Source: Mobula birostris
Lineage: Eukaryota
Direction: 5' to 3'
DNA: 64,000 nucleotides
Assembly: GCF_030028105.1 (NCBI RefSeq)
Contig: NC_092379.1
Location: 71,126,008 to 71,190,007, forward strand
The notes beneath the pieces were generated by a model, which saw nothing but the letters and a program-made list of their open reading frames with translations, did not search any database and had not been told where the DNA came from. The translations under genes and the position numbers were made by a program. This document shows positions 13,521 to 50,121 of the stretch, piece after piece; positions within the stretch are counted from its first letter, which is position 1; each line of letters opens with the position of its first letter.

Positions 13521-13639
13521 TAATGCCAGTGTGCCTTCTCCTCTTCACCTGCCTAACCCCAGGTAGCTTCCTGTGACACAGCATGTCGTCATCAACCCAT
13601 GGTATCCTCTACAATTAGAGCATTTGCTTGTCTGGGCCT

Positions 13640-18016: not shown

Positions 18017-18175
18017 GACAAGTGTATGGATAAACCAGGCCCACGGCTTGATAGCAGAACAGAAACCTGCTTGGTTAACTGCGTGGAACGTTTCATTGAC
18101 ACCAGCCAGTTCATCCTCAATCGACTAGAACAGACACAGAAAAGCAAAATGTCTTCCGAGAGCTTAAGTGACTAA
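18017..18175 (+). CDS. TIMM8A: TIMM8A exon 2
   Basis: Acceptor ggtag|GAC; [52 protein letters not shown]. The spliced 89-aa protein has the twin CX3C motifs (CWDKC, CLVNC). Confidence 0.97.
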
Positions 18176-24301: not shown

Positions 24302-25051
24302 GTAGTCTGGCACCAGACAATCCTAAAGTGCTGTATCATAGAGTTTCAACATGTGACTAATATGAAATCCCTGGATTATGGACCTTGCTATGTTGTGCCC
24401 AATGGAGATTGTGTTGGCATGTGAAAAATATGACCTCATAAGGAATGCTACTGCTAAGATCAACGATGAGAAAGAATACAACGGTACCAACTTCTAAGTA
24501 GTGCCTTTGGTTCTCTTCCTCAAACCTCACTACCTTCATTCTCTGAGTAGACTGAGGACAAGCATTGTCAAAATGAGATCCTTACATGGTGAGAGCTGGA
24601 TTCTTTTGTTTGATTTGGTGACCCAGGTTTCATGACATTATACCTGTCATGATCAAATTATTGAAACCTTTTACCCTTCCTGTCAAGACATGACAGTATT
24701 TCAAAGATAAATTGCCTGACACCTGAATTCCACACAGACACACACACACGCGCGCGCGATCATCTGTTCCCCCCCCATATTTAACAGTGCTGGGTAATGG
24801 GACACTCACTAGGACCAGCAACTTGGAACGAGTGAGTCCTTCTTCAGCTCAATATCATACTTGGAGAGGCAGCTCCGCCAACGTGTACCAGCTAACCATG
24901 AGGTGGATGGGAATGAACTCCAATATGATATTGCAGCCTGGGGAGGAATGCTAAATAAATGTGTGTAGACAGATCAGAAGGGTTTTGAACACACTGTCCC
25001 TGATCCTTCCAACTCGGCTCCCAGATGAAGCTATGCATTGCTGGCTTGGAG

Positions 25052-25623
25052 TTAGCAGCTGGGGCTTTCTGTCCCCTGGGAAGGCAGGGCTTGGTAAGGT
25101 TGGCTTCGGTCCACCCTGGGCTTGGCCTTCCTGAGGAACAGAGGCAGGATGCTAGGAGTGAAACTGATGTCCTTGAAAGAATGCAGCAGGAAGATACCAA
25201 GGACGATAACGAGGAACCCACTAATTGTGCCCACCATGTTGTAAATGGTCATGTGGTACCACTCCTTGAACAGAATGACTGAGCAGGTCATCACAGCAGT
25301 GGTAAAAAAGACATAGTAGATAGGAGTTACGATGGAGGTGTTGAAGATGTCGAGGGCTTTGTTCAGGTAGTTGATCTGGGTGCTGATGCAGACTATCAGG
25401 AAGACCAGCAGGATCCAGGTCATTGGGGATGATAGCACACGGTGGCCCACAAATAGCTCCTTAATGGCGATGCCCAGACCCTTAACACATGAGACAGAGA
25501 GGGAGCCAATGATGGAGCAGATGAGGATGTAGACCAGGACATTCTTCTGGCCGTAGCGGGGGGTCACCAACAAGATCAGGATCAAGCAGCTGACCACAAC
25601 ACACACAGCAAAAGCAATGAAAC
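25052..25623 (-). CDS. NIPA-family magnesium transporter (NIPA2-like), last coding exon (6)
   Basis: Acceptor ttgcag|GT, phase 1; [92 protein letters not shown]. Confidence 0.95.
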
Positions 25624-26438
25624 CTGCAAGGCAGAAACAAGGCTGGATTTAGATCGGGATGCAAGGTGTGTATGTGCACAATAAACAAAAAACCTGGCAG
25701 AACCAGTCCTGCTTTAAAAACACCTCCAACTTGGCACTAACTTGAAATGTGCCAGGTTACAGGGAAAATCCAGAATAAGCCAGAAATGCTGGAAGAACTC
25801 AGCCAGTTGGGAAGCTCCTGTTGGAAATAAACCAGTTAACATTTGCATTCAGAACTATGAGAGAGTGTCAGTTTTAAAAGCAGAGATGGAGAGTAGGAAG
25901 ATGGGGGACTAAACACTAGAAGGGGCCAGGTAAAGGTGATGAGCATGAATAGGATGGCGTGAGAAAGGGACAGGGTGAGATGAGATGTTGGGCCACAGTG
26001 TGGTAGTAGAGGAAGCCAAGCACAGACTAGAGTGGGATTGGGAAATAAAATGGCACAGGGAGAATCAATGTTCACTTGTGTGGCTGGTAACCAGAGCAGC
26101 CAGCTTTGACTGGAAAATGGGTGGATTTCCTTTGCTTTTGAAACTGAGTTTGTCATCACATGGAGTGTCATTCCTGAAAGCATACTGACAGCAGAATTAA
26201 GTGATTTTTTCAATAGGGAACTGGATAAATTTGTAGTTATAAAGTCTGCAGCACCAAGTAGAACCTAGAGTGAAACAGCTGCCTCACAAAGCACAGCCTG
26301 GCCAATCCCATGAAGGCCTTGACCCATCTACTGGAATCTATGATTCTGCCATAATTGATGGAGATGCATCTGTCCTGCACTGACACCTGTTGTTGTGGAA
26401 ACAAAGTATTCCACTAGATTTTACCCAATTTGTTCTAC

Positions 26439-26599
26439 CTGGATCCTTCAGCTTTTCCACCATTTCAGCCAAGGTTCCGACCTCCTCCTCCTGTGGGGCA
26501 TGGATGACCATCACCGTTGATCCCAGGATACTCAGAATGCAGCCCATCTTTCCGTGAAGGTTCAGCCGCTCATTTAAAAAGTATGAAGATAAGATAGCA
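26439..26599 (-). CDS. NIPA-like exon 5
   Basis: ctcag|T GCT..; (S)[53 protein letters not shown](G)|gtagaa; 161 nt, phases 2 and 1 match the neighbouring exons. Confidence 0.95.
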
Positions 26600-27590
26600 C
26601 TGAGGGAGAGTGGTGAGATTGTGTTAGGAATTCCAAAGACTGGATAGGAAACAGTAATAGAATTTACAAATTCCTGATCATTCTTTTTCTCTAGAGTTTC
26701 TTTAGAGTTTGTATCTGCTGCTACTTGCCTTGCCTTGAAGAGCAATATTTTAAAAGAAAAGCCTGGCCCCATTGATAGTTTTTGCTGTATCCATGCTCGA
26801 CTCCCAGACTCTCAAACAGGTTTTATTTATCATTTACCACACAAAATGCACAATCAAACTAACTGTACCTGACCCCATGGGGTAATGTGAAACGTCTTAA
26901 AACCCATGTCTAAAAGTAATCTATTTAAATTAATCTAAAAATCTGAATGAAAAAAGTTGAGAATACTCAACAGGACAAGATGGATGGAAGGTCCTTGCCT
27001 CCGCTTCTGTCTCCGTTCATGCTGCCTGATGCACCAAGCAATGCCATCCTCTTTCTCTTTAAGATGGAATATTATAAGACAGTGATAAAATGGGAAGTGA
27101 GAAAGACTCCGATGCTAGCAGTGTTGCAATGGGAGATGATGATGGGGGAAGGAAATGCTAAGGGCTGCACTGATGAAAGGATAGTGGGGTGTGAATACTG
27201 GGTCGCACCTGCTCTTTCAGATTCAATTGGGAATGGGGTCAGGCTTCAGTGGGCTGCAGTATTGTCTCCACTCTACCCCAGCTCAAGGTGACACCAACAT
27301 TGAAGTGACTGAATAGCTTCACTGCTGAACAACTCTTGCAGATCTCCTTGCTCAGCAAGAACCTGCTTATAGACTGTTTCTCCCACTCCCATTAGTGAAG
27401 AGGCCACACAGCATCTGCGCCAGGATCACAACAGTCAAAACCAGTTACTTTCCCCGAACTGAAAGGCTGCTCAACCCCTCCATCCATTCTCCCACCCCAC
27501 CACCCCCTTCCATTACATCTACATCATCCTCTCCTCTCCACAGCCCGTCCTTCATACCCCCACACACTGCCACTTGTACATTGTATTTTA

Positions 27591-28945
27591 TAGGATGACC
27601 TTTGATTCTGGCATGGTTCCAGATTGGAAAATTGCAAATGTCACTAAACTCTAAAAGAAGGGCAGAAGAAAGGAAATTATAGGCTAGTTAGCCTGACCTC
27701 AGTGGTTGGGAAGATGTCGGGAGTCGATTATTCAGGATGTGATTTCAGGGTACTTGGAGGCACATGATAAGATAGACCAACGTCAGCATGCTTTCCTCAA
27801 GAGAAAATCTTCCCTGACAAACCTGTTGGAATTCTTTGAGAAAATAACAAGCAGGATAGACGAAGGAGAATCAGTGGATATTGTATACTTGGATTTTCAG
27901 AAGGCCTTTGACAAGGTGCTGCACATGAGGCTGTTTGACAAGAGCTCATGCTATTACAGGAAAGATATTAGCGCGGGTAGAGCATTGGCTGACTGCCAAG
28001 AGACAGAGTGGGAATAAATGGAGCCCTTTCTGATTGACTACTGGTGACTAGAGGTGTTCTGCAGGAGTTGGTGTTGGGACCTTTTCATTTTACGTTGCAT
28101 GCCAATGATTTGGATGATGAATTGATGGCTTTGTGGCCAAGTCTGAGGACGATACAGAGATGGGGGAACAGCAGGTACTGTTGAGGAAGCAGGGAGACTG
28201 CAGGTGGACAAATTAGGAAAATGGCAAAGAAGTGGCAGGTGGAATACAGTATTGGGAAGTATTGGGTGTCATGAACTTTGGTAGAAGGAATAAAAGCATA
28301 GACTATTTTCTGAACAGGGCAAAAATTAAAAAATCTGAAGTGAAAATGGACTTGGGAGTCCCTGTGCATGATTCCCTAAAAGTTAACTTGCAGGTTGAGT
28401 CAATGGCAAGGAAGACAGATGCAATGTTAGCATTCATTTTGATAGGACTATATAAAATCTGTATTTTTAAGGCATTGGTGAGGCCTTGGAGTATTGTGAA
28501 CAGTTCTGGGCCTCCTATTTAGTAAGTAGGATTCTCCTATTGAGAACTATTTCAGGCATGAAAGGCTAATCATACGAGTAGCAATTGATGGCTCTGGACC
28601 TTTACTTGCTGCAATTTAGAATGAAGCTGGGATCTCATTGAAACCTATTGAATATTGAAAGGCTTAGATAGAATGGATTTGGAGATGACGTTTCCTCTAG
28701 TGGGGGAGTCCAGGAACAGCGTCAGAATAGAGGGTCTTTCATTTAGAACAGTGACGAGGAGGAATTTCTTTAGCCAGAGGGTGGCGACTCTGTGGGATTC
28801 AATATCAGAGGTTGTTATGGAAACCAGGTCATTGGGTCTATTTAAGGCAGAGGTTGATTAGAGAGTGAAAGGTTACGGGGATAAAGCAAGAGAATGGGGT
28901 TGAAAGGGAAATGGATGAATCCATGGTGAAAGATTGGAAGGAAGA
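27591..28945 (+). mobile_element. CR1/HER1 LINE fragment (RT to 3' end)
   Basis: LTNLLEFFEKIT..YLDFQKAFDKV; RRNFFSQRV. Confidence 0.9.
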
Positions 28946-28949
28946 AGCT

Positions 28950-29760
28950 CAGGCTGAAAAAAATAAAATCATATCCTTGCCTGTAAAGACTTTGCAAAGT
29001 GTTGCTTAGAAGATACTGTAAAGATGTGGGAAAATGCACAGTTGTGGTCTTGTGGTCAGATGAGCAAAGAGGAACTTTTTGGCCTGAATACTAAACATTA
29101 CAAGGGTTGTAAATCTAATACTGTGCATCAGCCAGGTAACACCATCCCTATTGTAAAATATGGTGGAGTAGTATGCTACGGGGATGCTTTTCAGCAGGAG
29201 GGGCTGGAAATCTGGTCGGGATTGATGGGAGGATGAATGCTGCTAAACACAGAGATTCTGGATAAAAACCTGCTTGCCTCTGCCAGAAAGCTTAAACTGG
29301 GGAGGAAGTTTGTCTTTCAGCAGGACAACAACCCAAAGCACACTGCCAGAGGAACCATGCTGTGGCTTCAAATGAAGAAAATTGATGTCCTTGAGTGGCC
29401 CAGTCAGATCCTGATCTTAACCCAACTGAACACCTCTAATAATACCTCAAGATTGCTATCCACTGCAGTCTTGCTCCTTCATGTTGTGGAAAGCTAATAG
29501 AGGCTTATCCAAAAAGACTACTGGATGTAATAGCTGAGGGAGGTGCTGAGCAAAGAAGGGTGAATACTTTTGAACTGCTGACATTTCAGTTTTTGAATCT
29601 TTAGCTTTTCTTATTTTACAATTTTCCCTGTTTTTTGGACTCTACTGTGAAACAAGGAGCATGTGATTCACATGTAAAATTCTCAGTTAAATTGATCAAA
29701 ATCCTTGCTTGTAATACTGGTTTAAGTGAACAAAGGTTGGGGGCTGAATACTTTTACCGT
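28950..29760 (+). mobile_element. Tc1/mariner DNA transposon remnant (3' half)
   Basis: [30 protein letters not shown] (Tc1 DDE motifs). Repeated gg.tgaatactttt at about 29558 and 29742 resembles the direct repeats of an IR/DR terminal repeat. Confidence 0.85.
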
Positions 29761-31019
29761 ATATACCAAATTTCCCAAAAGCTGTCCCACTGTTTGTTAA
29801 TCCTGTTGGAGAACTGTGCACTGTATTCTGTCTCTGAGATAAGGCTGTATTTCTCATAATCCTTTTACAGAAATATTCAATATTCCCATAATATTATAAA
29901 TGTTTCTTTATGGAAAAATGCAAAGTGAACTTTGAACCATACCATGAAAATGATGGGATGTGTAGAAAGATTTCTACACATTTCTAACATATGCTAACCT
30001 GACCTTGGGTCATACATCACAGAAACAAATTCTCCGGTCCACCATGTACATGTTTGTTCTCAACTACATTATCCCATTTATCCACATTAGGCCCATATTC
30101 TATGCCTTGACAATTCCAGTGTCTAAACACCTCATAAACACAGTGACTGTAACTTCTTCCACCACATTCTTATGGAAGCAAGTTCAAGATATAAACCATT
30201 GTGTGAGGAAGTTTCCCCTCTAAAACCCTGCCCATCCTCCTATAGTGTGGGCTGCCAGAAATGCACACAATACTCCCAAGTGTAGTGTTATTTGCAACAA
30301 AATGTTCCAATGTTTATATTTCTGTCACCTGACCCATGAAAGCAAGTATTCCAGGTACCTTCTTCACCACTCTATCCAGCTGTGTTGCCATTTTCCAGAA
30401 CCCTTGGGTGTGAACCGTTTGGTCTCTGTTCATCTACCTCCATTAGTGCCCTACAATTTATAGGTCTTACCTCTATTTAACTTTTCAAGGTGCACAACTT
30501 TGTAGTTGTCGTGAGTATTGTTAATGATTTTGAGCATATGAATCTCAGTTCTTGTTGGGAATGCTGGTGTTACTTGGCCTTGTGAGTGGGGATAATCGTG
30601 ATGAGGCCATGTCTCTCCTCTGTGTATTGGTGCTGCCTGCTGTTTGGTTTGTGAGCTGGATTGAAGGGTGGAGGGTCTCACACGGTGAAACTGCCTGACT
30701 GTGATTACACCGTTCAGGTGTTTGTAAAGAGTCAGTGTATGGGGAATGGGAAACCAGAATCAAGGCATTTAGCGTCAAATTGCACAGAAACAGGCCATTC
30801 GGCCCATTCTAACCAGGGGCACCCATTCCTTTAATCCCATCTCTCAGCAATTGGCCTGTAGCCTTACCAGGTAATTCAAGTGCTCATCTAGACACCAATG
30901 CTGTCCGCATCTCTGCTTCCACCTGTCTCAGGTAATCAGTTTGCATACTCAACACTCTAGGTGCAAAGGGTCCTCTTAAGATCCCCTCTGAATTTATTCG
31001 ACCCCCCCCCCCCCACCCT

Positions 31020-32295
31020 AAATCTAAGTCCTAGGTCAACGGCAGATGCCATCTCTCTGGCCCTACATTCCTCCTTAGAACACCTGGAGAATAAAGACGC
31101 ATACGTAAGGCTCCCTTTCATTGCCTACAGCTCTGCCTTTAATACCATCATTCCAAATAACCTGATTCCTAAGCTCCGGAACCTGGGCCTTAGCAGTCAG
31201 ATCTGCAGCTGGATCTTCAACTTCCTCACAGACAGGACCCAGGCTGTAAAAATAGGGGACAAGCTCTCCTCTACAATCACTCTGAGCACCGGTGCCCCAC
31301 AAGGCTGTGTACTCAGCCCCCAGCTGTACTCACTGTACACCCGTGATTGTGTAGCCAAGTTTCCATCAAACTCAATATATAAGTTTGCTGATGACACAAC
31401 AATTGTAGGCCATTTCTCGGGTAATGATGAGTTTGAGTACAGAGAGGAAATTAAGAACCTGGTGGCATGGTGCAAAGACAATAACCTATCCCTCAACGTC
31501 AGCAAGACGAAGGAATTGGTTGTTGACTTCAGAAGGAGTAGCGAACCACACAACCCAATTTACATCAGTGGTGTGCAAGTGGAACAGGTCAAAAGCTTTA
31601 AGTTCCTCGGGGTCAACATCACAAATGACCCGACTTGGTCCAACCAAGCAGAGTTCACGGCCAAGAAGGCCCACCAGCGCCTTTACTTCCTGAGAAAACT
31701 AGAGAAATTTGGCCTGTCCCCTAAAACCCTCACTAATTTTTATAGATGCACCGTAGAAAGCATTCTTCAAGGGTGCATCACAACCTGGTATGGAAGTTGT
31801 CCTGTCCAATACTGAAAGAAGCTGCAGAAGATTGTGAAAACGGTGCAGCACATCACATAAACCAATCTTCCGTCCTTGGACTCACTTTACACCGCACGCT
31901 GTCAGAGCAGTGCTGCCAGGATAATCAAGGACACAACCCACCCAGCCAACACACTTTTCATCCCTCTTCCCTTCAGGAGAAGGCTCAGGAGCTTGAAGAC
32001 TCGTACGGCCAGCTTTGGGAACAGCTTCTTTCCAACTGTGATAAGACTGCTGAACGGATCCTGACCCAGATCGGGGCCGTACCCTCCAAATATCCGGACC
32101 TGCCTCTCAGTTTTTTTGCACTACCTTACTTTCCATTTTTCTATTTATGATTTATAATTTAAATTTTTAATATTTACTAATTCTTACTATTTTTAATATT
32201 TAATATTTGTAATCCAGGGAGTGGGAGCGCAGAATCAAATATTGCTGTGATGATTGTACGTTCTAGTATCAATTGTTTGGCGACAATTAAGTATA
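31020..32295 (+). mobile_element. Rex1/Babar LINE, 5'-truncated, relatively young
   Basis: ORF 30961..31815: [51 protein letters not shown]; continues SFGNSFFPTVIRLLN, then an AT-rich 3' UTR. Confidence 0.92.
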
Positions 32296-32489
32296 TAGTT
32301 TTACCTACCCCTGATATGGATAATACTTTTTCACATCTCCCCCATCTGTACCAGTCATAATTTCATACACTTCAATTATGTGCCCTCTCAAGTTCCTCTG
32401 CTCCAGTCTTTCCTCATCACTGAACTGCTCCAACTCAGGCAACATCCTGAAGAATGGAGCCACAACAGCCTCTTACCCAGTGTAGCAAG

Positions 32490-33196
32490 ACCAAGGAGCT
32501 GATTATCATGTCGGAGGACCTGTCCTGGGCCCAGCATGTAAGTGCAATTATGAAGAAAGCACATCAGTGCCTCTGCTTCTTTAGGAGTTTGTGAGGACTT
32601 GACATGACATCTGAAACTTAGACCAACTTCTATAGGTGTGTAGTGGAGAATATATCGACCGGTTGCATCACTTCCTGTCATGGAAACACCAAAGCCCTTG
32701 AATGGAAAATCCTACAAAAAGTAGTGGATACGGCCCAGTCTATCACAAGTAAGGGCCCCCCCACCATTGATCACATCTGCATGAAACGCTGTCACAGGAA
32801 AGCAACAGGGACCCCACCATGCAGGTCATACTGTCTTCTCACTGCTGCAATCAGGAAGGTGGTACAGGAGCCTCCGAACTCACACCACCAGGTTCAGGAA
32901 CAGTTATTGCCCCTCAACCATCAGGCTCTTGAACCAGAGATAACTTCACTTGCCCCATCACTGAACTGTTCCCACATTATATAAACTCACTTTCAAGGGC
33001 ACCATCTCATGTTCTCAATATTTATTGCTTATTTAATTAATATTTCTTCTATTTCTATTTGTAGTTTGTTGTCTTTTGAACGCTGGTTGTCTGCCCTGTT
33101 GGTGCAGTCTTTCATTAAGCCTATTATAGTTATTGGTTTTATTGAGTATGCTGACAAGAAAATGAATCTCAGGATAATAAATTTACTTAGAACTTT
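32490..33196 (+). mobile_element. Rex1/Babar 3' fragment
   Basis: VENISTGCITSCHG..LQKVVDTAQSIT; accaccaggttcaggaacagttatt; tail aataaatttacttagaactt. Confidence 0.75.
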
Positions 33197-33370
33197 CACA
33201 AAATGTTGGAGGAACTCAGCAGGCCAGGCAGCATCTATGGAAAAGAGTACAGTCAACGTTTCGGGTTGAGTCGACTGTTTACTCTTTTCCATAGATGCTG
33301 CCTGGCCTGCTGAGTTCCTTGAGCATTTTATGTGTGTTGCTTGGATTTCCAATCTGCAGATTTTCTCTTG
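33197..33370. mobile_element. Short palindromic Penelope pLTR-derived insertion with 15-bp target-site duplication
   Basis: 33197-33332 is a near-perfect inverted repeat; flanks tttacttagaacttt (33182-33196) and tttactttgaacttt (33371-33385). Confidence 0.75.
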
Positions 33371-33582
33371 TTTACTTTGAACTTTGATCATTCAAGTAAG
33401 AGGTAAGCTACACTGTATGCAGTACTCCAGCTAAGGTCCAACCAATGTTTTATAAAATTGGAGCATAATCTCCCTATTCTTCTATTGAATGGTCCAAGTA
33501 ATGAAGACCAGTATCCCATACGCTGCCTTAGCCATGTTATCCATCTGTGCTGCCAGCTTCAAAGGTCACGGGAATTGCTCAT

Positions 33583-34294
33583 CAATGTCTCTCTTTTGTT
33601 AGTAATAGGCTTAAACACCACCGTTCAAGCTGCCATTCGTACCCCTCACCTCACACTAAACTCCATCTCAGCAATGTCTCTCTTTTGTTAGTAATAGGCT
33701 TAAACACCACCGTTCAAGCTGCCATTCGTACCCCTCACCTCACACTAAACTCCATCTCAGCAATGTCTCTCTTTTGTTAGTAATAGGCTTAAACACCACC
33801 GTTCAAGCTGCCATTCGTACCCCTCACCTCACACTAAACTCCATCTCAGCAATGTCGCTCTTTTGTTAGTAATAGGCTTAAACACCACCGTTCAAGCTGC
33901 CATTCGTACCCCTCACCTCACACTAAACTCCATCTCAGCAATGTCGCTCTTTTGTTAGTAATAGGCTTAAACACCACCGTTCAAGCTGCCATTCGTACCC
34001 CTCACCTCACACTAAACTCCATCTCAGCAATGTCTCTCTTTTGTTAGTAATAGGCTTAAACACCACCGTTCAAGCTGCCATTCATACCCCTCACCTCACA
34101 CTAAACTCCATCTCAGCAATGTCCCTCTTTTGTTAGTAATAGGCTTAAACACCACCGTTCAAGCTGCCATTCGTACCCCTCACCTCACACTAAACTCCAT
34201 CTCATCAATGTCTCTCTTTTGTTAGTAATAGGCTTAAACACCACCGTTCAAGCTGCCATTCGTACCCCTCACCTCACACTAAACTCCATCTCAG
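33583..34294. repeat. Minisatellite, 89-bp unit x8
   Basis: caatgtc at 33583, 33672, 33761 ... 34206; units nearly identical. Confidence 0.97.
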
Positions 34295-34584
34295 CCGACT
34301 TCACCAACATATCAATATCACCCTGTAGCCCAGACTATCCTCCATAATGAACAATGTGTCCATAGTGATCACGTCTACATCCACATGCACTGTCTACATT
34401 ACAAACACAAAGGATCTCAGCACCGATTTGTGACACAACAGAGGTCAACGGCCTCCAAATCACAAGAACAACCTCCACCATTACCCTGTTCTCAATGGTA
34501 AAGACAATTCTAGGTCTAGTTTACCAGCTTGTTGGGAGGGTAGGAAAGAGGAGACCATGAGCTGAAGGACATTGGGTTTGCTCA

Positions 34585-34698
<114 letters not shown>

Positions 34699-35089
34699 TT
34701 AGAGAGCAAACCAGGTACTCAATGTACCCGGTGCTCAGTCATCACACAACCCACACAGACAGTGACAGGCCAGAGAGGAGTAAAGGGACCCCAGGGTGAC
34801 AGGGTGGATGGAATCTGCGGGTGGGGTGGCAGAAGAGGATCAGAGTGGAATTGGCGGATGCGGAGGGCTGGAAGAATAGAGATGTAGCGGGACCCATTTG
34901 GGGGAGAGTATTTTGTGGGGGAAAGAGGGGTGGAGTGGGCAGGAGGGTGAGTGGGGTCGGGGTGTTAGGACACTGGGATAGGTGGAGGGTAGGTGGTCAA
35001 TGGAGTTGTAAGGTAGGAGGACACTGCCCACCCTCTTCTTGACCAAGAGAACCGATGCATGGCTGCTGTCCCGGTGTGAGCTCCCGTCA

Positions 35090-35245
<156 letters not shown>

Positions 35246-35419
35246 TTAAACACGGCACTCATACAGCCAGCCCCACCTAACTCACATCACCGGCTGTACC
35301 TCTGGGCTAGGGGCTTGCAGGCACTGGGATTGGGTAGGATAGGGAAGTGCAGCCAGTCGACCTGACACCAGGAGTTCACGGCAACAGTAACTGAGCCAGC
35401 AGAAAGCAATATGCTGCAG

Positions 35420-35745
35420 CCACTACGGTTGCTGCCTCATTGCGCCAGCGAGCCAAGGTCAGTCCTGACTGTGTGGAGTTTGCACGTTCTCCCAGTGATC
35501 CTGTGGGCTCCCCCCTTCCCCCCCAGTACTCACACTAGTTTGTTCCCACATCCCAAAGATGTGTCAGTTAGTGGGCTTTCTGGCTTCTGTAAATTGTCCC
35601 AGTGTGTAGGTGCGAGGTAAAATCTGGAGGAAATTGATGGGAACATGAGGCAGATTAAAAAAATGTAGGATTGGTGTAAATGAGCTGTGATAGTCAACAC
35701 AGACTCAATGGCCAAAGGGCCAGTTTCAGTGCTGTACGACTCTGA
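35420..35745 (+). mobile_element. V-SINE-like tRNA-derived SINE
   Basis: gctgcctcattgcgccag..tgtgtggagtttgcacgttctccc..cccacatcccaaagatgtg..gtaaattgtccc; LINE-derived tail atggccaaagggcc..gtgctgtacgactct. A related copy lies at about 36880-37195. Confidence 0.65.
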
Positions 35746-36097
35746 TTCGATTATCTCCTCTCATTGGTATGTGTGAGCTCTCCTATGGAGACTGATAAGA
35801 ATTGAAACGCAGTGTCACCACACAGAACACTGTGTTGGTAGTAACTGCTCCTTCCTGTGGCCAAATGGAGAACTGTAGCAGCACTGGACACTGACAGGTG
35901 GACATCACCTCCCCGAACCTGCCAACTTGTTCTCCCGTTCTCCTATGAAGGCCCTTACCTCCCCTTTCCCATCAGAGGGGCTGACTCTCTTACCCTCACC
36001 CCTCTGCAGTTCCTGGAGCAGAGACTCGTCTCTCTCATCCCAGCATTATTCCACTTGAGACCAGGTCACACAGTCCAGCTGCAGGAAGGCCACTTAC

Positions 36098-36245
36098 CTG
36101 CTCTCACCGCTGACTTCCCGGCCAGGCGCAGGAGTCCCTTCTTCTTCAGGATGAAACTGCTCCCAATGAAGATGCTGGAGCTAATGGCAAGAGCAAGCCC
36201 CAGGTAGAAGACATAATGCCCAGTGCTGCTGTCAGTGGCTGGAAG
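36098..36245 (-). CDS. NIPA-like exon 2
   Basis: ccccacag|CTT, phase 0; [49 protein letters not shown](G)|gtaagt; no in-frame Met, so an upstream coding exon is required. Confidence 0.92.
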
Positions 36246-38229
36246 CTGTGGGGCACAGGGCTGAGTTTACCGTTAGCTACAAAAATACAGGGAGCTACCA
36301 TACAGTGAAAAACCTGCTTGCAGTATAGCCAGCAAGTAGGTTCAGACAACATATAATATCAATTAGACATGAAATTATACTATACAGTGAAATAAAATGT
36401 CATGCAAAGAAAAACAAAGACACAATTGACGTTCATGACAGTACAAGACGTGGTCCATGTTGTTCCATTGCTGAGGGAGGAGTTATGCAGGTCCGTTGAA
36501 GAATTGTCATTGTGAGGGAGGGGGAGTTGGGGGTTCTAACTGTCATTCATTCTTTGGGGCACTGTTTTTGTGGATGTCTGAAGAAGAAGAATTTCTGGAT
36601 GTATATTGTACATATTTCTCTGACATTAGATGTACCTTTTGAACCGAGTGGAAGTAGGAAGGCAGCTGCTCTTGAATCTGGTGGTGTGGTTCTTCGGGCT
36701 TCTGTAGCTCCTGCCTGACAGTAGCAGTACAGTGGGGAAGCAGGGTCAGCACTTGCTCTGTCTAACATGGGAAACAGGGATATCCCTGCACCATAGAACA
36801 ACTTATTCCCCATACTGGACCAAGGAGGTGCTGACAAACCCGATACCAAACAGCACAGTGACATCAGGCAACAGGGACAGTGCAGGTAGAGCCATGACCC
36901 AGGTTTAATCCTGACCTCGGTCGCTGTCTGTGTGGGGTTTGCACGTTCTCTCCGTGACCCCATAGGTCTACCCCACCCCTACATCCCAAAGATGCACAGG
37001 TTGATGGATTAACTGGTGCTGGAACGTGTGTCTGCTGTGTGTGTGAGTGGTAGAATCTGGTGGGGGCTGGGGGAAGGGAAGCTGCAGAGTATGCGGGCAG
37101 AAAAAACTCACAATGTGGAATTAGTGTAAATGGGAACTTGTTAGTTGTCACACTCATTGAGTCGAAGGGTCTGCATCTGTGCAGTTGACTTTACAACTCT
37201 AATGGTCACTGTTGTCTGAGAATGACATACGTGTTTCCGAGCTGAGAATATAAGTGCCATGTCGCATGACATGAGCGATCATGGTCTCATGATCACGATT
37301 GTTCTTGGCAAACTTTTCGTCAGAAGTGGTTTGCCATGACCTCCTTCTGGGCAGTGTCTTTACAAGGCAGGTGACCCCAGCCATTATCAACACTCTTCAG
37401 GGATTCTGTCTGCCTGGCGTCAGTGGTCGCGTAACCAGGACTTGTGATATGCACCGGTCGTTCATACCGCCATCCACCACCTGCTCCCATGGCTTCACGT
37501 GACCCAGATCGGGGGTGGGGGGTGGGGGGTGGTTTAAGCAGGTGCTACACCTTGCCCAAGGGTGACCGGCAGGCTAGCAGAGGAAAGGTGTGCCTCACAC
37601 CTCCTTTGGTAGAGACGTATCTCCACCCCGATACCCACCGAGCTGGGAAGGAATTAGAAATTAAATTGGTGAAGCAGAGAGGAGGGAGGACCTTGAAGAT
37701 CTGGGCAAGTGGGTTGAAAGGTTATACTCAACAGAACTGTGCTCAAAGTCCTTACATAGGGTTTAAACAGCGCTGTGAGAAATGTTCAAACCCGATTATT
37801 ACAGGTACAGCAAAATGTGGGAGACAAACATTTAGAACATAGGGTAATTTAAGGTGAGGAGGTTATATGGGAGGCAGAGTTTAAGGGTCAGCACAACACT
37901 GAGGGTCGAAGGGCCTGTACTGTGCTGTACTATTCTATGTTCTATGTAATTCAAAACAGAGAGTGGACAGAAAATGGGATTACAATTGAGGCACTTTTGA
38001 AGGGATTTTAATATTTCTAAATACACTCAATTCTGTAGGAAGTCAAGGAGTTGAAGGTAATTTTAAACAAATAACTGTCTACATGGAGAGGGATGGTACA
38101 AATGTGCTGTCCAGTACTCCATCCATTAAGTATTACTGTAGTTAGTTTAGTGCAAGTTTCTGAACAGTAATAGGGAGACTGTGAGGTATTCTTGAAGGCA
38201 ACTTACAGAGGGACACCAAAAACGGCAGA

Positions 38230-39430
38230 AACTGATTTGCCTATCACCACATTTGGTCTATGGTGGACACATTCTTACTGGCTCTCCACTCAGTTTTGGA
38301 TCAGCTGGACAAAAGCAGGCTGCTGTTTATTGATTACAGCTCAGTGCTCAACACCATCATACCCTCGGTACTAATCAACGAGCTCCAAAACATGAGCCCC
38401 TACACCTCCCTCAGTATATGGAGTCTTAACTTTCTCATCGGGAAACCATAATCATTGCAGATTGGAAATAACATCTCCTCCTTGCTGGCAATCAACACTG
38501 GTGCACCTCAAGGAAATATGCTTATCCCAGTACTGTACTCTCGCTACACCCATGACTGTGTGGCTAGGCACAGCTCAAATGCCATCTATAAATTTGCTGA
38601 CAAGACAACTATTGTTGGCAGAGTTTCAGACGGTGACAAGGAGGTCACCATCAACAGACTATCTGGCTGAGGGGTGTCGCAGCAACAACCTTGTACTCAA
38701 TGTCAAAAAGACCAAGAAATTGATGGTGGACTTCAAGAAGGGGAAGTTGAGGGAAGACACCCAGTCCTCATCAAGGAATCAGAAATAGAAAGGGGGAGTA
38801 GTTTCAAGTTCCTGGGTATCAAAGTCTCTGAAGCTCTATCCTGGGCCCAACATATTGATGCAATTACAAAGAAGGCACAACAGCAGCTACATTTCATTAG
38901 GAGTTTGAGGAGGCTTGGAATGTCAGCAAAGACTCACAAATTTCTGCAGATGTACCCTGGGGAGCATTCTAACTGGTCGCATCACCGTCTGGTACGGAGA
39001 GGCCACTGCACTGGATTGGTAAAAGCAACAGGAAGTTACAAACTTAGCCAGCTCCGCCATGGGCACTAGCCTTACCGGCATCAAGGATATCTTCTAAAGG
39101 TGATGCCTCAGAAAAAGCGGCATCCATCCTTAAGAATAGCCAATATCCAGGGCATGCCCTCTTCTCACTGTTACCATCAAGGAGCTGGTTCGGGAGCCTG
39201 AAGACACACACTCAACATTTTACTAACAGCTTCATCCCCTCTGCCACCATATTTCTGAATGGAAAATGGACCCATTTATACTACCTTATATTTTAGCTCT
39301 GTTTTTGCTCTACCTATTTAATTGTATATTGCCTATTTTTTATAATTTTATTATGTATTACAATGCACTGCTGCCACAAAAAAAAACAAATTTCATGCAA
39401 AATGCCTGTGATATCAAACATGATTCTGAA
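38230..39430 (+). mobile_element. Rex1/Babar LINE fragment, decayed
   Basis: RLLFIDYSSVLNTIIP; NTGAPQG..YTHDCVA..IYKFADKTT; SFKFLGI..LHFIRSLRR. Confidence 0.85.
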
Positions 39431-39581
39431 TCAAAGGAGGAATTGATGAGCACATGAGAGAGAAAACATTGCAGGGGTAAATTGAGAGAATTGGGACAGT
39501 TGGGATTCATTCATGGGAGCTGGCATGAACCTGTGGCATGAATGGCCACCTCTTGTGTTATATTAGTATTTCTCTCCTAAA

Positions 39582-39913
39582 GTGTACAAGATAATAAGAG
39601 GAATAGATAGAGTGGACAGCCAGCTCCTCTTCCCCAGGGCACCACTGCTCAATACAAGAGGACATGGCTTTAAGGTAAGGGGTGGGAAGTTCAAGGGGGA
39701 TATTAGAGGAAGGTTTTTTACTCAGAGTGTGGTTGGTGCGTGGAATGCGCTGCCTGAGTCAGTGGTGGAGGCAGATACACTAGTGAAGTTTAAGAAACTA
39801 CTAGACAGGTATATGGAGGAATTTAAGGTGGGGGCTTATATGGGAGGCAGGGTTTGAGGGTCGGCACAACATTGTGGGCTGAAGGGCCTGTACTGTGCTG
39901 TACTATTCTATGT
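39582..39913 (+). mobile_element. CR1 3' fragment
   Basis: YKIIRGIDRVD..TRGHGFKVRG..FFTQSVVGAWNALP; tail gtgctgtactattctatg. Confidence 0.85.
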
Positions 39914-40379
39914 AAGTTATATTTCTGATAAATGTGAGTTATTGAAAAAATGTGAATATTGTTCATTATCCTTTGCATGAATTACATTTGAGCAGAACAC
40001 AGGTCCAAGTGATGTCCCTTGAACAAAGTTAGTAAAGATACTGCGACTGTGGAGTAAACCACTGATTCCTTGACAGAGTTGCAGAAATTTCTCTGCATCA
40101 ACTTTCCTCAATTAACATCAGTTTGCAATTCCAGCTTCACATCAGTGGCAAATATATCAAGTGTCTGCTGACTGCACGTGCAAAGCTACCTTTCATCACC
40201 TACCGAGACTGATGTGGAGATCGGTTCTGGCACCAGGAATACTCCACCAAGAGGAATTATCTCCATTCTCCTGGGACATACAAGAAGCGTCAACCGTTCC
40301 AGAAGGCAGGAAGAGGAAGTGACACAAGTATCACACCATCCTTCCCGGACAACAGACCCTTAATATGATGTAGTATTGC

Positions 40380-40935
40380 CGGCCCAACCTTACCTCTGCC
40401 TTCCATACCTCTGTCATCCTCCCCACCCTTCCCTTCATTACCTCACTTACCTATCTCCTCATTGCCCCAACACCCAACCTGACCCCATGCCCTTCTCTTC
40501 CCACATCCCTATCCTTCCGACCCTATGGACGCCCCTTCTATCCATCCCACCTGACTCCGCCCTCCTTCTCTACCCCTAGCTCTCCTTTTACTCCTCTGCC
40601 CGCACCCCCTTCCTCCCTAGACTGCCACCCCGTCCCTCCTTCCTTCCCAGCTCCCAACACTCTCCAACCCCGGCCCTCCTTTTACCTCCCTACCGTGGAG
40701 CCATCCAATCCCGACCACCTTATTCCCTCCTATCCTTGAACCCCTCTTCTCTCACAACCCCAATCCCAGCTTCCTTAATTATCTCCTTACCCCTGACACT
40801 CCTCCCTCCTCACCCAATTCCCCTTATTCCTTACAAACTCCAACTCTCCACCCCACCCCCTTCCCTCCTTCACCTCCAAACAGCGCCTCTTTCCTATCTA
40901 TTCTCAACTCCTGTAATTCCTCCTTTACCCCGCAC
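40380..40935 (+). repeat. Pyrimidine (C/T)-rich low-complexity tract at the start of NIPA-like intron 1
   Basis: About 550 bp strongly depleted of G on +, so G/A-rich on the NIPA sense strand. Confidence 0.8.
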
Positions 40936-40940
40936 CTCAC

Positions 40941-40955
40941 TGACAACTTCTCCAT
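40941..40955 (-). CDS. Predicted NIPA-like first coding exon (MEKLS)
   Basis: ggaagATGG strong Kozak; ATG GAG AAG TTG TCA|gtgagg is phase 0 and joins exon 2 in frame. Total CDS 15+148+57+91+161+572=1044 nt (347 aa). Confidence 0.65.
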
Positions 40956-41111
40956 CTTCCGATCCGCCGCTCCAGCCGTCCTCCCAGCCTACTTCCGCTC
41001 TGCTGTGTGCACCCCGCATCTGCCTCCCGGGTGGACTTCCGGCATGCCGGGTGAGGAACCAACGCCGTCCCGCGGGTTATGGACCGGAAAAGCTGCGGCA
41101 GCTGGAACAAG
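40956..41111. promoter_or_regulatory. Compact bidirectional CpG-rich promoter shared by NIPA-like (-) and TAF7 (+)
   Basis: CpG-rich 40950-41350; ETS-type cores ACTTCCGC (40991), ACTTCCGG (41035), CCGGAAA (41084); divergent ATGs on each side. Confidence 0.7.
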
Positions 41112-41118
41112 ATGACAG
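41112..41118 (+). CDS. TAF7: TAF7 predicted first coding exon (ATG ACA G)
   Basis: caagATGACAG|gtgggc; phase 1 joins exon 2 in frame, giving MTAKGQKQGSKSKEDAP, similar to the extended fish TAF7 N-terminus. Confidence 0.7.
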
Positions 41119-41444
41119 GTGGGCGCCGGGGATTGGGATTTCTCCGCGGCGATGGTCTCCGGGGAGACCGGGAGGGCGTTGTTCCCACCTCTGGAGCAGT
41201 TAGACATCTCCTGTAGTCTTCGGTACTGGAGTACAACACGGGAATCAGTCCTTCGCACGTTATGGAAATACCGGTCCCTTCGCCCATCCCATTAGTCCTC
41301 CCCGGATTCTGAGAGCTCAGAAGCGCCCAGGAGGCCTCTCGGCGCTTTGGGTCTACGCCAGTTAACTCTCAGTCCCGTGTGTTTATTCTCTCACACCCAT
41401 CATCTCTCATTTGATTCTTTTGTCATTAATCTGTACTCTAATTA

Positions 41445-42480
41445 ATCTGCCGGTTACCAGTGGTGTTCCACAGGGGTCCGTGTTGAGGCCGTTTCTTTTT
41501 ACATTGTACATCAACAATTTGGATTATGGAATAGATGGCTTTGTGGCTAAGTTTGCTGACGATACAAAGATAGGTGGAGGGGCCGGTAGTGCTGAGGAAA
41601 CAGAGAGTCTGCAGAGAGACTTGGATAGATTGGAAGAATGGGTAAAGAAGTGGCAAATGAAATACAATGTTGGAAAGTGTATGGTTATGCACTTTGGCAG
41701 AAGAAATAAATGGGCAGACTATTATTTAAATGGGGAGAGAATTCAAAGTTCTGAGATGCAACGGGCCTTTGGAGTCCTCATACAGGATACCCTTAAGGTT
41801 AACCCCCAGGTTGAGTCGGTGGTGAAGAAGGCGAATGCAATGTTGGCATTCATTTCTAGAGGAATAGAGTATAGGAGCAGGGATGTGATGTTGTGGCTCT
41901 ATAAGGCACTGGTGAGACCTCACTTGGAGTACTGTGGGCAGTTTTGGTCTCCTTATTTAAGAAAGGATGTGCTGACTTTGGAGAGGGTACAGAGAAGATT
42001 CACTAGAATGATTCTGAGAATGAGATGGTTAACATATGAGGAACGTTTGTCCGCTCTTGGACTGTATTCCTTGGAGTTTAGAAGAATGAGGGGAGACCTC
42101 ATAGAAACATTTCAAATGTTGAAAGGCATGGACAGAGTGGATGTGGCAAAGTTGTTTCCCATGAAGGAGGAGTCTAGTACGAGAGGGCGTGACTTAAGGA
42201 TTGAAGGGTGCCCATTCAGAACAGAAATGCGAAGAAATTAGTTTAACCAGAGGGTGGTGAATCTATGGAATTTGTTGCCACGGGCAGCAGTGGAGGCCAA
42301 GTCATTGGGTGTATTTAAGGCAGAGATTGATGGGTATCTGAGTAGCCAGGGCATCAAAGGTTATGGTGAGAAGGCGGGGGAGTGGAACTAAATGGGAGAA
42401 TGGATCAGCTCATGATAAAATGGTGGAAGAGACTCGATGCGCCGAATGGCTGACTTCTGCTCCTTTGTCTTATGGTCTTA
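41445..42480 (+). mobile_element. CR1/HER1 LINE 3' part
   Basis: ORF 41411..42241 VTSGVPQGSVL..KFADDTKIG..LVRPHLEYC; tail tcttatggtctta. Confidence 0.93.
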
Positions 42481-43449
42481 CTTACTTACAGCAAACAATT
42501 ACCCAACCGGCCTGCGCGTCTTTAGGATGTGGGGGGAAACCTACACAGTCACACACAGCAGCAGATGGTAACAGTGAGAAAAGGTAACGTCATGGGTGCA
42601 AGAGGTCCTTAATAATGGGTGCTGCCTTTCTGAGCCACTGTTCACTTTGTCCTGGGTACTGTGTAGGCTAGTACCCAAAATGGAGCTGACTAGATTTACA
42701 ACTTTCTGCAGCTTCTTTCGGTCCTGTGCAGTAGCCCCTCCATACCAGACAGTGATGCAGCCTGTCAGAATGCTCTCCACAGTACAACTATAGAAGTTTT
42801 TGAGTGTATTTGTTGACATGTGCTTGCATTGAAGGCTGCTTGTATAGACCTGAGCTGCCTTCAATTCCACAATTCAGCTGCTGCACATCATAAAATCGCA
42901 GCTCATCCTTCCTTAAATATGTTCTTAGTACCCTGGCTGTGGTTTCATATTTCCCTGCGATAGTGAAGTGGAGGTGATGCCAAATGTCTTCTCTCAGAGG
43001 TGAGTCGATGGAATTCTTGACATGGAGGATTGTCGAGGGGGGAGACATTTAGTATATTCGAGGTAGCAATTGACACACCTTTAAAGTGTATTGTGAACAG
43101 TCAGGTGGTACTGGGAGAGTGGTGTGTGTTGAAGACTAGAAGGCTGTGATGTTGTTAAATGACCAAGCAGGTTGGAGTGTTAGACTGATAGGCTACTGCT
43201 TCTATTCCTTCTGGTCTTGCCTTCTTAAGCGACTAGAATAGCCTGACCTTTGAAAGCCATGTTGGTGGTGTCTTCTCCACTCATCTCAGTGGGTTCCAGC
43301 GCAAGTTCTCTGTATTGCTGCAGTGGGAACAGGGAAGTTTTCCTGTTTTTTCTGTCAATATTTGGGTCAATAAACACAATTAGAGATCACCTGACCATTT
43401 ACCTTATTGCTATTTATGGGATCTTGCTATGCACAATCAATAACTGGAT

Positions 43450-44762
43450 TAGACAATGGGCAATAGACAATAGGTGCAGGAGTAGGCCATTCGGCCCTTC
43501 GAGCCAGCACCGCCATTCACTGTGATCATGGCTGATCATCCACAATCAGTACCCCGTTCCTGCCTTATCCCCATAATCTTTGATTCCACTATCTGTAACA
43601 GCTCTATCCATCTCTTTCTTGAAAGCATCCAGAGACTTGGCCTCCACAGCCTTCTGGGGCAGAGCATTCCATATATCCACCACTCTCTGGGTGAAAAAGT
43701 TTTTCCTCAACTCCGTTCTAAATGGCCTACCCCTTATTCTTAAACTGTGGCCTCTGGTTCTGGACTCATCCATCAGCGGGAACATGCTTCCTGCCTCCAG
43801 CGTGTCCAATCACTTAATAATCTTATATGTTTCAATAAGATCCCCTCTCAGTCTTCTAAATTCCAGAGTATACAAGCCCAGTCGCTCCAATCTTTCAACA
43901 TATGACAGTCCCGCCATCCCGGGAATTAACCTTGTGAACCTACGCTGCACTCCCTCAATAGCAAGAATGTTCTTCCTCAAATTTGGAGACCACAACTGCA
44001 CACAGTACTCCAGGTGGTCTCACCAGGGCCCTGTACAGCTGCAGAAGGACCTCTTTGCTCTTATACTCAATTCCCCTTGTTATGAAGGCCAGCATGCCAT
44101 TAGCTTTCTTCACTGCCTGCTGTACTTGCATGCTTGCTTTCAGTGACTGATGTACAAGAACACCTAGATCTCGTTGGGCTTCCCCTTTTCCTAACTTGAC
44201 TCCATTTAGATAATAATCTGCCTTCCTGTTCTTACCACCAAAGTGGATAACCTCACATTTATCCACATTAAACTGCATCTGCCATGCACCTGCCCACTCA
44301 CCTAGCCTGTCCAAGTCACCCTGCATTCTTATAACATCCTCCTCACATTTCACACTGCCATCCAGCTTTGTGTCATCGGCAAATTTGCTAATGTTACTTT
44401 TAATTCCCTGATCTAAATCATTAATATATATTGTAAACAGCTGCGGTCCCAGCACTGAACGCTGCGGTACCCCACTGGTCACTGCCTGCCATTCCGAAAG
44501 GGACCCGTTAATCGCTACTCTTTGTTTTCTGTCAGCCAGCCAATTTTCAATCCATGTCAGTACTCTGCCCCCAATACCATGTGCCCTAATTTTGCCCACA
44601 AATCTCCTATGTGGGACTTTATCAAAGGCTTTCTGAAAGTCCAGGTACACCACATCCATTGGCTCTCCCTTGTCCATTTTCATAGTTACATCCTCAAAAA
44701 ATTCCAGAAGATTAGTCAAGCACAATTTCCCCTTCATAAGTCCATGCTGACTCGGACCAATC
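43450..44762 (-). mobile_element. CR1/HER1 LINE 3' part, antisense in TAF7 intron 1
   Basis: ORF 43955..44764 QHGLMKGK..YLDFQKAFDKV..KFADDTKL; (CTATTGT)-type tail at about 43450-43470. Confidence 0.93.
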
Positions 44763-45152
44763 AAATGTGAACCAGTGGCTGACTTTCAGAAGTACTTCAG
44801 GATTGAACTTTGATGTTCTTTGGGATGGCAATAGATTGCAGAAGTGTGTTTATCAATGCAGTTGTCTTCAATAAAAAGTCTAAACAAATTTTCAAAATGG
44901 TTAAAAGTAAAGTTTACTGTCATATGCACAAGTAGGGAATTGAGTATCCATTTGCAGGGGAATGGGTCTTGAAGCTCAATGATGAGTCTGGATAGTATAT
45001 TGTGACATCATGTGCACGTGTACCCACACCCGCACGCTCACAAACTCTTTCTCTCTCCTCCTGCTCTCAGCCTTGTTTGTGATTTCCCTTTTGTTCCCTG
45101 ATGTTAAGAACTGGATGAATCTGACCCGCTCTATTTGTGATTTATATTTCAG

Positions 45153-45235
45153 CTAAAGGTCAGAAGCAGGGCTCAAAGAGCAAGGAAGATGCTCCGTATG
45201 AGCTGGAGAGTCAGTACATCCTGAGGCTGCCACCG
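45153..45235 (+). CDS. TAF7: TAF7 exon 2
   Basis: tttcag|CT; (A)KGQKQGSKSKEDAPYELESQYILRLPP|gtgagt; matches TAF7 SKDDAPHELESQFILRLPP. Confidence 0.95.
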
Positions 45236-45679
45236 GTGAGTGTGTCAGAGCGTCAGCTTCCGGCTTCAGGTGGAAATTGATTTTAAATAATGTTTTGTAA
45301 CCTGTTGTCAAAGTTTAATCCTTTGAAATGAAAGCTGTCCTGGTGAAAGGATGTGAATTGTTTTCCAACAATATAATCATCCTGACGGGTGGTGCCCAGC
45401 ACTGAAGATGGTCTAATCTGAAGTTTCTATCACCAAAATACTCTCCACCCCCTTTGTGTACCAGCCTACAGGCAGAGGTCAGCATCCATTAGTCTCTGTA
45501 ACTGGTGTTGGCATATTCTTCCCTCTGCCACTCTACACCCTATCTCAGTGAGAGGTATGGTCCTGCAGGGAAAAGGATCAGGCCAGTTTGGTGAAGCTGC
45601 GGTGTAGGATTCCATGTATTCTTAACAGCAAATGCTGGGGACTCACCTAACAAATCAGATCGAGGTTCTGAGTCCTGCC

Positions 45680-47180: not shown

Positions 47181-47454
47181 TTCCCAATCAGAATCAGCTC
47201 CATTATCTCTGACATAGGTCATGAAATTTGCTTTGCAGCAACAGTTACAGTGAAAGCCATTAAAAAATTTTGTTACAAACTGAAATAAAAAGTGCAAACG
47301 ATGAGTAACGAGGCAGTGTTCATGGACCGTTCAGAAATCTGATGGCAGAGCGAAAAAAGCTGTGCCAAAAATGTTGAACGTTGGTCCTCAGGCTTCTGTA
47401 CCTGCTGACTATATCACTCGCAACTCTGCAAGCGAAGTAGCCTATGCTTGTATA

Positions 47455-50042: not shown

Positions 50043-50121
50043 GAATTTGCAGCCACTGTACGGAGAGCAGTGCAGTCTGGGAATGTGAACCTGCGGGATC
50101 GACTTACCATTGAACTACACC
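50043..50121 (+). CDS. TAF7: TAF7 exon 3
   Basis: ccacag|GAA; EFAATVRRAVQSGNVNLRDRLTIELH(P)|gtgagt; 79 nt. Confidence 0.96.

What the first reader, a model, noticed from the sequence alone, without database searches (positions are those of the whole stretch)
25052..40955. Intact NIPA-family gene between TIMM8A and TAF7(L): candidate fourth 2R ohnologue absent from the human BTK locus
Seen: a six-exon, phase-consistent, stop-free 347-aa NIPA2-like CDS lying between BTK-TIMM8A and TAF7. Established: human Xq22 has BTK-TIMM8A-TAF7L with no NIPA gene between them. The human relatives sit in one paralogon: NIPAL1 beside TXK/TEC (4p12), NIPAL4 near ITK/CYFIP2 (5q33) and NIPA2 beside CYFIP1 (15q11). 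Inference: a NIPA gene next to the Tec-family member BTK is the expected fourth whole-genome-duplication copy. It would be a distinct Mg2+ transporter lost in the human lineage and probably auto-labelled only 'NIPA2-like'.
Basis: partly seen in the sequence, partly recalled or inferred. Interest (0 to 1): 0.72.

Follow-up and report, generated by a model that had tools for sequence, protein, structure and literature searches.

The report
Fourth NIPA transporter lost in placentals
This ray gene is an intact, spliced fourth member of the NIPA membrane-transporter family that fish, amphibians, reptiles, birds, monotremes and marsupials keep and placental mammals appear to have lost; it likely arose in the early vertebrate genome doublings and is predicted to carry magnesium and nucleotides, but its origin and its loss already stand, unnamed, in two papers' supplements.

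Summary
The gene is real. RNA-type contigs join its exons at GT-AG sites, but it has seven coding exons (371 aa, or 363 from the second ATG), not six (347 aa). The protein is identical to a RefSeq giant manta ray record labelled 'NIPA2'. The genome holds separate NIPA2, NIPAL1 and NIPAL4 genes beside CYFIP and Tec-kinase genes. In trees it sits in its own shark-to-marsupial clade (100/98), sister to NIPA2 (91/98); recent duplication is rejected. No placental member was seen. All residues that bind Mg2+ and ATP in human NIPA2 are kept, so it likely works as a passive Mg2+/nucleotide uniporter; this is untested. Left open: a head-to-head 5' end shared with TAF7, and why placentals lost it.

The parts
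40936..40955 (-). NIPA coding exon 1 (20 nt, first ATG; used in one splice form)
   Evidence: joint 40269/40935 in contigs of X3 and X4; matches P0002
40204..40270 (-).
   Evidence: joint 36245/40204 in 4 of 4 runs; P0123 and P0125 start here
36098..36245 (-). NIPA coding exon 3 (148 nt; first helix, F28 site)
35167..35223 (-). NIPA coding exon 4 (57 nt, same length in all four paralogues)
34586..34676 (-). NIPA coding exon 5 (91 nt; E70, N73, G89, S92 sites)
26439..26599 (-). NIPA coding exon 6 (161 nt; H111, H129, acidic patch E133-E135)
25052..25623 (-). NIPA coding exon 7 (572 nt with stop; S192, K197, Q232, Y252, Y253, F256 sites)
24400..25051 (-). 3' UTR, at least this long (contigs run past the stretch laid)
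   Evidence: table 8
40850..41400 (.). CpG-rich stretch (GC 0.59, CpG o/e 0.80 against 0.29 for 30000-40000) holding the NIPA ATG (40955, -) and the TAF7 ATG (41112, +), 156 nt apart; likely a shared head-to-head promoter
   Evidence: single contigs of X3 and X4 run from NIPA exons into TAF7 exons
41112..53849 (+). TAF7, first five coding exons (41112-41118, 45153-45235, 50043-50121, 52909-53042, 53729-53849); the only TAFII55_N match in the genome
   Evidence: joints in 4 of 4 runs
9818..18175 (+). TIMM8A, two coding exons, 89 aa
   Evidence: zf-Tim10_DDP on both exons
5537..5614 (+). Last coding exon of BTK (inferred from position after the kinase exons just upstream of the window)
   Evidence: (upstream kinase exon: BTK 94.8 bits, BMX 76.7, ITK 63.1)

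Best explanation
This is an intact, spliced, seven-exon gene that belongs to a fourth jawed-vertebrate NIPA clade (zgc:101583), sister to NIPA2, likely made by the two early vertebrate genome doublings, apparently lost in placental mammals, and predicted to work like NIPA2 as a dimeric passive carrier of Mg2+ and nucleotides. Shown here: gene structure, separate NIPA2/NIPAL1/NIPAL4 loci with Tec-kinase and CYFIP neighbours, the four clades, and full conservation of the substrate residues. Inferred: the ancestral block was Tec kinase - CYFIP - NIPA; four copies became TEC-NIPAL1, ITK-CYFIP-NIPAL4, CYFIP-NIPA2 and BTK-(TIMM8A)-this gene. Inferred from human NIPA2: hydrated Mg2+ or Mg-ATP/ADP binds between two lobes (E70, S192, Q232; F28, N73, G89, S92, Y252, Y253, F256), the acidic patch and K197 close the outer lid, and the substrate moves down its gradient. 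The loss in placentals was likely tolerated because NIPA2 does the same job.
For: Splicing. Family: PF05653 440.7 bits, 523 bits to human NIPA2 chain 9z6n_A. Own genome: 5 last-exon matches of 26 scored = this gene, C8 NIPA2, C4 NIPAL1, C4557 NIPAL4, C8 NIPA1; 25 CYFIP exon matches on two loci only, next to NIPA2 and NIPAL4; Tec-family kinase exons 18-31 kb from NIPAL1's last exon and on the NIPAL4 contig, the latter best matching ITK. All four paralogues share 57/91/161-nt exons. Tree of 36 rows: this clade 100/98, NIPA2 98/93, the two together 91/98 (906 of 1000 bootstraps). AU tests reject shark+ray duplication, mammal duplication, and pairing with NIPAL1 (p 0.012) or NIPAL4 (p 0.003). 12 of 12 tested residues kept in the ray; all 12 in 146 of 157 clade rows with letters at every site (rows include isoforms). 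Lagman 2022 table puts the orthologue 2-11 kb from BTK in 8 species and inside the BTK span on opossum X.
Against: NIPAL1+NIPAL4 is not resolved as the other pair (352 of 1000 bootstraps; not rejected, p-AU 0.375). With the one lamprey sequence included, support for this clade falls to 93/98 and for the pair plus lamprey to 78/96. No amphioxus or tunicate outgroup was used. Placental absence rests on the best 120 of 3963 hits and on two papers' tables; I could not search a placental genome. No transport assay exists for this clade. The ray lacks the two acidic residues D277/D278 at the NIPA2 dimer face (Y, N). The C4 kinase is TEC only by recall: it matched BTK and ITK equally.
Confidence: 0.85

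Rival explanations
1. Same clade and history, but the protein has changed job (other substrate, partner or compartment), and that job became dispensable in placentals.
For: Long stem branch (0.21 against 0.12 for NIPA2); six clade-diagnostic sites, one (A190S) two residues from S192; D278 replaced by N or G in most rows; a different cytosolic tail. Marsupial copies have a worn acidic patch (EET, EDM, EEM).
Against: Every residue shown to contact Mg2+ or ATP in NIPA2 is kept; 77% identity to NIPA2 over 292 core columns.
Confidence: 0.09
2. An old small-scale duplicate of NIPA2, made before sharks and bony fish split, that landed next to BTK by chance rather than by genome doubling.
For: The four-clade tree is not fully symmetrical; no CYFIP copy lies next to this gene.
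Against: Three of the four NIPA loci sit by a Tec-family kinase and two by a CYFIP; this gene faces BTK tail to tail as NIPAL1 faces its kinase. Introns are kept, so it is no retrocopy. Lagman 2022 places the four clades on gar LG4, LG6, LG7 and LG17 with six other families.
Confidence: 0.05
3. The gene is NIPA2 itself (moved), or a recent ray- or shark-specific copy of NIPA2, as its database label suggests.
For: RefSeq names it 'magnesium transporter NIPA2'; NIPA2 is its nearest paralogue.
Against: A separate NIPA2, 88% identical to the human-like protein against 77% for this gene, lies between CYFIP and NIPA1 on C8. AU test rejects it, p 5e-8.
Confidence: 0.01

Closest known systems
zgc:101583 / unnamed 'LG7' NIPA clade of Lagman et al. 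2022 (PMC9803222, S7 Fig and S2 table)
   Same: Same clade: its coelacanth (368 aa) and gar (366 aa) members carry the same name and lengths as P0012 and P0014 in my tree; same place next to BTK; no human or mouse member; family judged consistent with 2R.
   Different: That tree's labels hold no cartilaginous fish, monotreme or Australian marsupial, and the clade is neither named nor discussed in the passages I read.
Genes with lost coding potential, Hezroni et al. 2017 (PMC5577775, Table S1)
   Same: Opossum, chicken, lizard, Xenopus and coelacanth gene ids of this clade are all listed as missing in eutherians.
   Different: Ids only; no family name, tree or function.
Human NIPA2 (SLC57A2; PDB 9Z6N, 9Z7R, 9Z7S, 9Z7T; PMC13500462)
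   Same: 77% core identity to the human-like P0206, all tested substrate and gating residues; same intron places as the ray's own NIPA2.
   Different: Paralogue, not orthologue; longer N-terminus, different C-terminal tail, D277/D278 not kept, G26 is S.
KDRL, the fourth VEGF receptor (PMC4898815, passages)
   Same: A fourth 2R family member not maintained in eutherians.
   Different: Unrelated protein; named and studied. That it lies in the same X-linked block is recalled, not checked.

Membership tests
NIPA (SLC57) family | Mg_trans_NIPA domain (PF05653) over its full length | tested here: met
   440.7 bits, profile 2-295 of 295, cut-off 26.2
NIPA (SLC57) family | Substrate residues F28, E70, N73, G89, S92, S192, Q232, Y252, Y253, F256 and gating residues E134, K197 (human NIPA2 numbering) | tested here: met
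   12 of 12 in P0002; list from PMC13500462
NIPA (SLC57) family | Nine transmembrane helices, dimer | tested here: inconclusive
   Simple hydropathy finds 8 peaks above 1.4; alignment to 9z6n_A has no gap across the helices; no model was folded
NIPA (SLC57) family | Passive Mg2+ and nucleotide transport | not testable with these tools
   Needs a liposome or cell assay
NIPA2 orthologues | Nests in the NIPA2 clade | tested here: not met
   Separate clades 100/98 and 98/93; AU p 5e-8
NIPA2 orthologues | Lies between CYFIP1 and NIPA1 | tested here: not met
   Another gene holds that place on C8
zgc:101583 / gar-LG7 clade | Monophyly with gar, coelacanth, teleost, bird and marsupial members | tested here: met
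   179 of 327 rows in the FastTree run
zgc:101583 / gar-LG7 clade | Adjacent to BTK | tested here: met
   BTK last exon 5537-5614, TIMM8A between; other species
2R ohnologue quartet NIPA2/NIPAL1/NIPAL4/this gene | Each clade spans cartilaginous and bony vertebrates, invertebrates outside | tested here: met
   NIPAL1 support is weak (76/56) and it has one cartilaginous-fish row
2R ohnologue quartet NIPA2/NIPAL1/NIPAL4/this gene | Four paralogous blocks with shared neighbour families | tested here: met
   C12, C8, C4, C4557 with Tec kinases and CYFIP; gar LG7/17/4/6 in PMC9803222
2R ohnologue quartet NIPA2/NIPAL1/NIPAL4/this gene | Symmetrical ((A,B),(C,D)) topology | tested here: inconclusive
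   This gene + NIPA2 in 906 of 1000 bootstraps; NIPAL1 + NIPAL4 in 352, not rejected
Genes lost in eutherians | No placental orthologue | tested here: inconclusive
   3 named placental hits and 1 human-like unnamed hit among the best 120 of 3963 all fall in NIPA2; no placental genome could be searched; papers agree

The most novel reading that the evidence does not exclude
All jawed vertebrates except placentals have an extra X-block Mg2+/nucleotide carrier whose promoter is shared head to head with the single housekeeping TAF7 gene; when that TAF7 copy became the testis-restricted TAF7L in mammals, the NIPA gene lost its body-wide promoter and decayed, with worn acidic-patch residues in marsupials marking the way. 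Shown: the head-to-head layout and single TAF7 in this ray. Not shown: the layout in amniotes, or the order of events; PMC6672047 dates the TAF7/TAF7L split to early mammals, before lineages that still keep the gene.
Probability: 0.1. Interest if true: 0.5.

Novelty: already known. Interest (0 to 1): 0.24.

Why it matters
It matters mainly for naming and for fish, frog and chicken work. Databases call this gene 'NIPA2' or 'NIPA2-like', and call the ray's NIPAL4 'NIPA2-like' too, so expression and knockout studies can mix paralogues; a zebrafish nipa2 model of the human 15q11.2 deletion may be buffered by a sister gene that humans lack (inference). With NIPA2 now shown to move nucleotides, the clade is a ready comparison for which residues set substrate choice. 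It adds one more case to a familiar pattern, the fourth genome-doubling copy lost in placentals.

Tried and rejected
The six-exon 347-aa model and a 351-aa variant (donor 40928): rejected by contig joints. Paper searches for NIPA2/NIPAL paralogy, 'zgc 101583' and eutherian loss of NIPA2 gave 0 papers; some searches listed papers, of which two mattered through their supplements. Kuraku and Kuratani 2011 (PMC3296468): no NIPA term in the main text, supplements not readable, so it may list the chicken gene too. The Taf7l knockout paper was not held, so that TAF7 is a retrocopy of TAF7L is recalled only. No RNA holder on record was listed; the runs used are guessed RNA. A scan of metagenome contigs for amniote loci found nothing (588 pattern matches, 0 confirmed), so the TAF7 layout outside this ray is untested. 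The two matches in Hezroni's Table S4 (mouse chr14 lncRNA via a TIMM8A anchor, human chr5 pseudogene via a taf7 anchor) are probably false synteny through moved gene copies, not relics of this gene (inference). Frog protein P0306 falls just outside the clade with weak support (0.59) and is a partial model. Earlier findings of the scan: none. No structure or complex prediction was run, since sequence identity to a solved structure already answers the fold.
Full report
Observation. The minus strand carries a NIPA-family gene between TIMM8A and TAF7. All internal splice sites are GT-AG. Laying contigs of four runs (two studies) on 24400-41400 shows the five downstream joints in 4 of 4 runs. The seven-exon CDS gives 371 aa, identical to P0002, a RefSeq giant manta ray protein named 'magnesium transporter NIPA2'. 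An in-frame ATG at 40266 gives 363 aa and matches the start of stingray and sawfish records, so it may be the main start. The tool only guesses that these runs are RNA, and contigs give neither strand nor level.

Neighbours. The kinase exon just upstream of the window matches BTK best (94.8 bits; BMX 76.7, ITK 63.1). TIMM8A has two exons, 89 aa. TAF7 is multi-exon, spliced in 4 of 4 runs, and the only TAFII55_N match in the genome (8 candidates scored). Its ATG lies 156 nt from the NIPA ATG on the other strand, in a CpG-rich stretch; single contigs of X3 and X4 run across both genes, which shows touching or overlapping 5' ends, not one transcript.

Other copies in this genome. The last exon finds five loci (26 candidates scored). 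CYFIP exons map to two loci only. On C8, CYFIP (20.915-20.971 Mb, +) faces NIPA2 (20.978-20.998 Mb, -), followed by NIPA1. On C4557 a kinase that matches ITK best, a CYFIP and NIPAL4 lie in a row; the N-terminal exon of what is likely the same kinase sits on C8 beside a long run of N. On C4 a third Tec-family kinase (TEC by recall; one search does not decide) faces NIPAL1 tail to tail, as BTK faces this gene. All four paralogues share 57-, 91- and 161-nt exons. So the gene is neither a moved NIPA2 nor a retrocopy.

Tree. With 50 proteins picked by hand from the searches (one or two per lineage, full length), four clades appear; the single lamprey row, a long branch, joins NIPA2 plus this clade and lowers support. 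After dropping lamprey, two long outgroups and 11 close relatives (36 rows), this clade has 100/98, NIPA2 98/93, NIPAL4 100/98, NIPAL1 76/56, and this clade plus NIPA2 91/98. AU tests reject a shark/ray duplication (p 5e-8), a mammal duplication (8e-61) and pairing with NIPAL1 (0.012) or NIPAL4 (0.003); NIPAL1+NIPAL4 is neither recovered nor rejected (0.375). Outgroups were molluscs and insects; no amphioxus or tunicate sequence was at hand. A FastTree run on 327 rows (rows outside 280-470 aa or over 35% gapped left out, a few kept by hand) puts 179 in this clade: sharks, rays, ray-finned fish, coelacanth, lungfish, salamanders, caecilians, reptiles, birds, both monotremes and seven marsupials.

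Loss. Searching with the platypus protein, marsupial orthologues rank above every true NIPA2; the three named placental hits and one human-like unnamed hit among the best 120 of 3963 all fall in NIPA2. This is not an exhaustive search, and I could not search a placental genome.

Mechanism. PMC13500462 (read: abstract, introduction, most results, discussion) shows human NIPA2 as a nine-helix dimer that moves Mg2+, ATP, ADP and GDP analogues down their gradients, with E70A, Q232A, F256A and E134A impairing transport. The ray protein keeps all ten cavity residues, E133-E135, K145, K197, H111, H129 and F299; it differs at G26 (S) and D277/D278 (Y, N). All 12 tested sites are kept in 146 of 157 clade rows with letters at each; most exceptions are E134D. 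The likely function is therefore a passive Mg2+/nucleotide uniporter like NIPA2. This is inference; nothing was assayed.

What is known. Lagman et al. 2022 (PMC9803222; read: passages, section 9, text of S7 Fig, NIPA sheet and BTK rows of S2; the figure itself was not seen) state that the NIPA family topology is consistent with expansion in 2R. S7 shows NIPAL4 (gar LG6), NIPAL1 (LG4), NIPA2 (LG17) and an unnamed LG7 group with medaka, stickleback, zebrafish zgc:101583, gar, reedfish, chicken, anole, opossum X, Xenopus and coelacanth, and no human or mouse. Its coordinates lie 2-11 kb from BTK in zebrafish, stickleback, medaka, gar, reedfish, coelacanth, Xenopus and chicken, and within the BTK span on opossum X. 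Hezroni et al. 2017 (PMC5577775; passages and supplement rows) list the opossum, chicken, lizard, Xenopus and coelacanth ids among genes missing in eutherians. KDRL is a named precedent (PMC4898815 passages). In ten paper searches I found no paper that names or studies the gene; subscription journals and some supplements were out of reach.

Verdict. The idea that the loss followed TAF7's change into testis-restricted TAF7L is a guess; PMC6672047 (passages) dates that duplication to early mammals, which does not fit simply with retention in monotremes and marsupials.

Noticed in passing
window 40936-41118: NIPA and TAF7 start codons are 156 nt apart on opposite strands, and single contigs cross from one gene's exons into the other's: touching or overlapping 5' ends.
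   Followed up: partly
window 25052-25054: The stop lies seven codons before the stop of stingray and sawfish records, and the skipped codons are still in frame behind it; a second Mobula record ends at the same place. A genus-specific trim of the cytosolic tail.
   Followed up: partly
P0181, P0183, P0187, P0190, P0193, P0194, P0498: All seven marsupial orthologues have a worn acidic patch (EET, EEM, EDM for EEE) and a long stem branch; possible relaxed constraint in therians.
   Followed up: no
G000:C4557 and G000:C8:172870001-172920656: An ITK-like gene seems split between unplaced C4557 and C8, where a run of at least 49 kb of N follows its BTK-motif exon; C4557 likely belongs in that gap.
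   Followed up: partly
P0397 (G000:C4557:7823-23976): The ray's NIPAL4 is also labelled 'NIPA2-like' in RefSeq, as are other shark NIPAL4 records.
   Followed up: yes
window 14462-16528: A 688-codon stop-free reverse-transcriptase frame (PF00078) in the TIMM8A intron; a recent LINE copy, CR1-like by recall.
   Followed up: no
window 56350-59600: Remnants of DNA transposons in a TAF7 intron; Tc5 transposase DNA-binding domain at 58741-59256.
   Followed up: no
window 18998-19811, 33578-34295, 45979-46817, 54256-54543, 55210-55738: Young tandem arrays (periods 81, 89, 35, 58, 40; 92-98% matches); the 35-bp array is CpG-rich and gives chance ORFs of about 300-350 codons.
   Followed up: no
P0009, P0098, P0173-P0177: Several teleost records of 540-690 aa look like NIPA1 and NIPA2 joined into one model; probably annotation artefacts of the adjacent genes.
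   Followed up: no
G000 whole genome: The BTK-motif search gave three Tec-type exons (C12, C4, C8) among 7 matches and no fourth that looked like BMX; only 150 of 439 candidates were scored, so absence is not shown.
   Followed up: no
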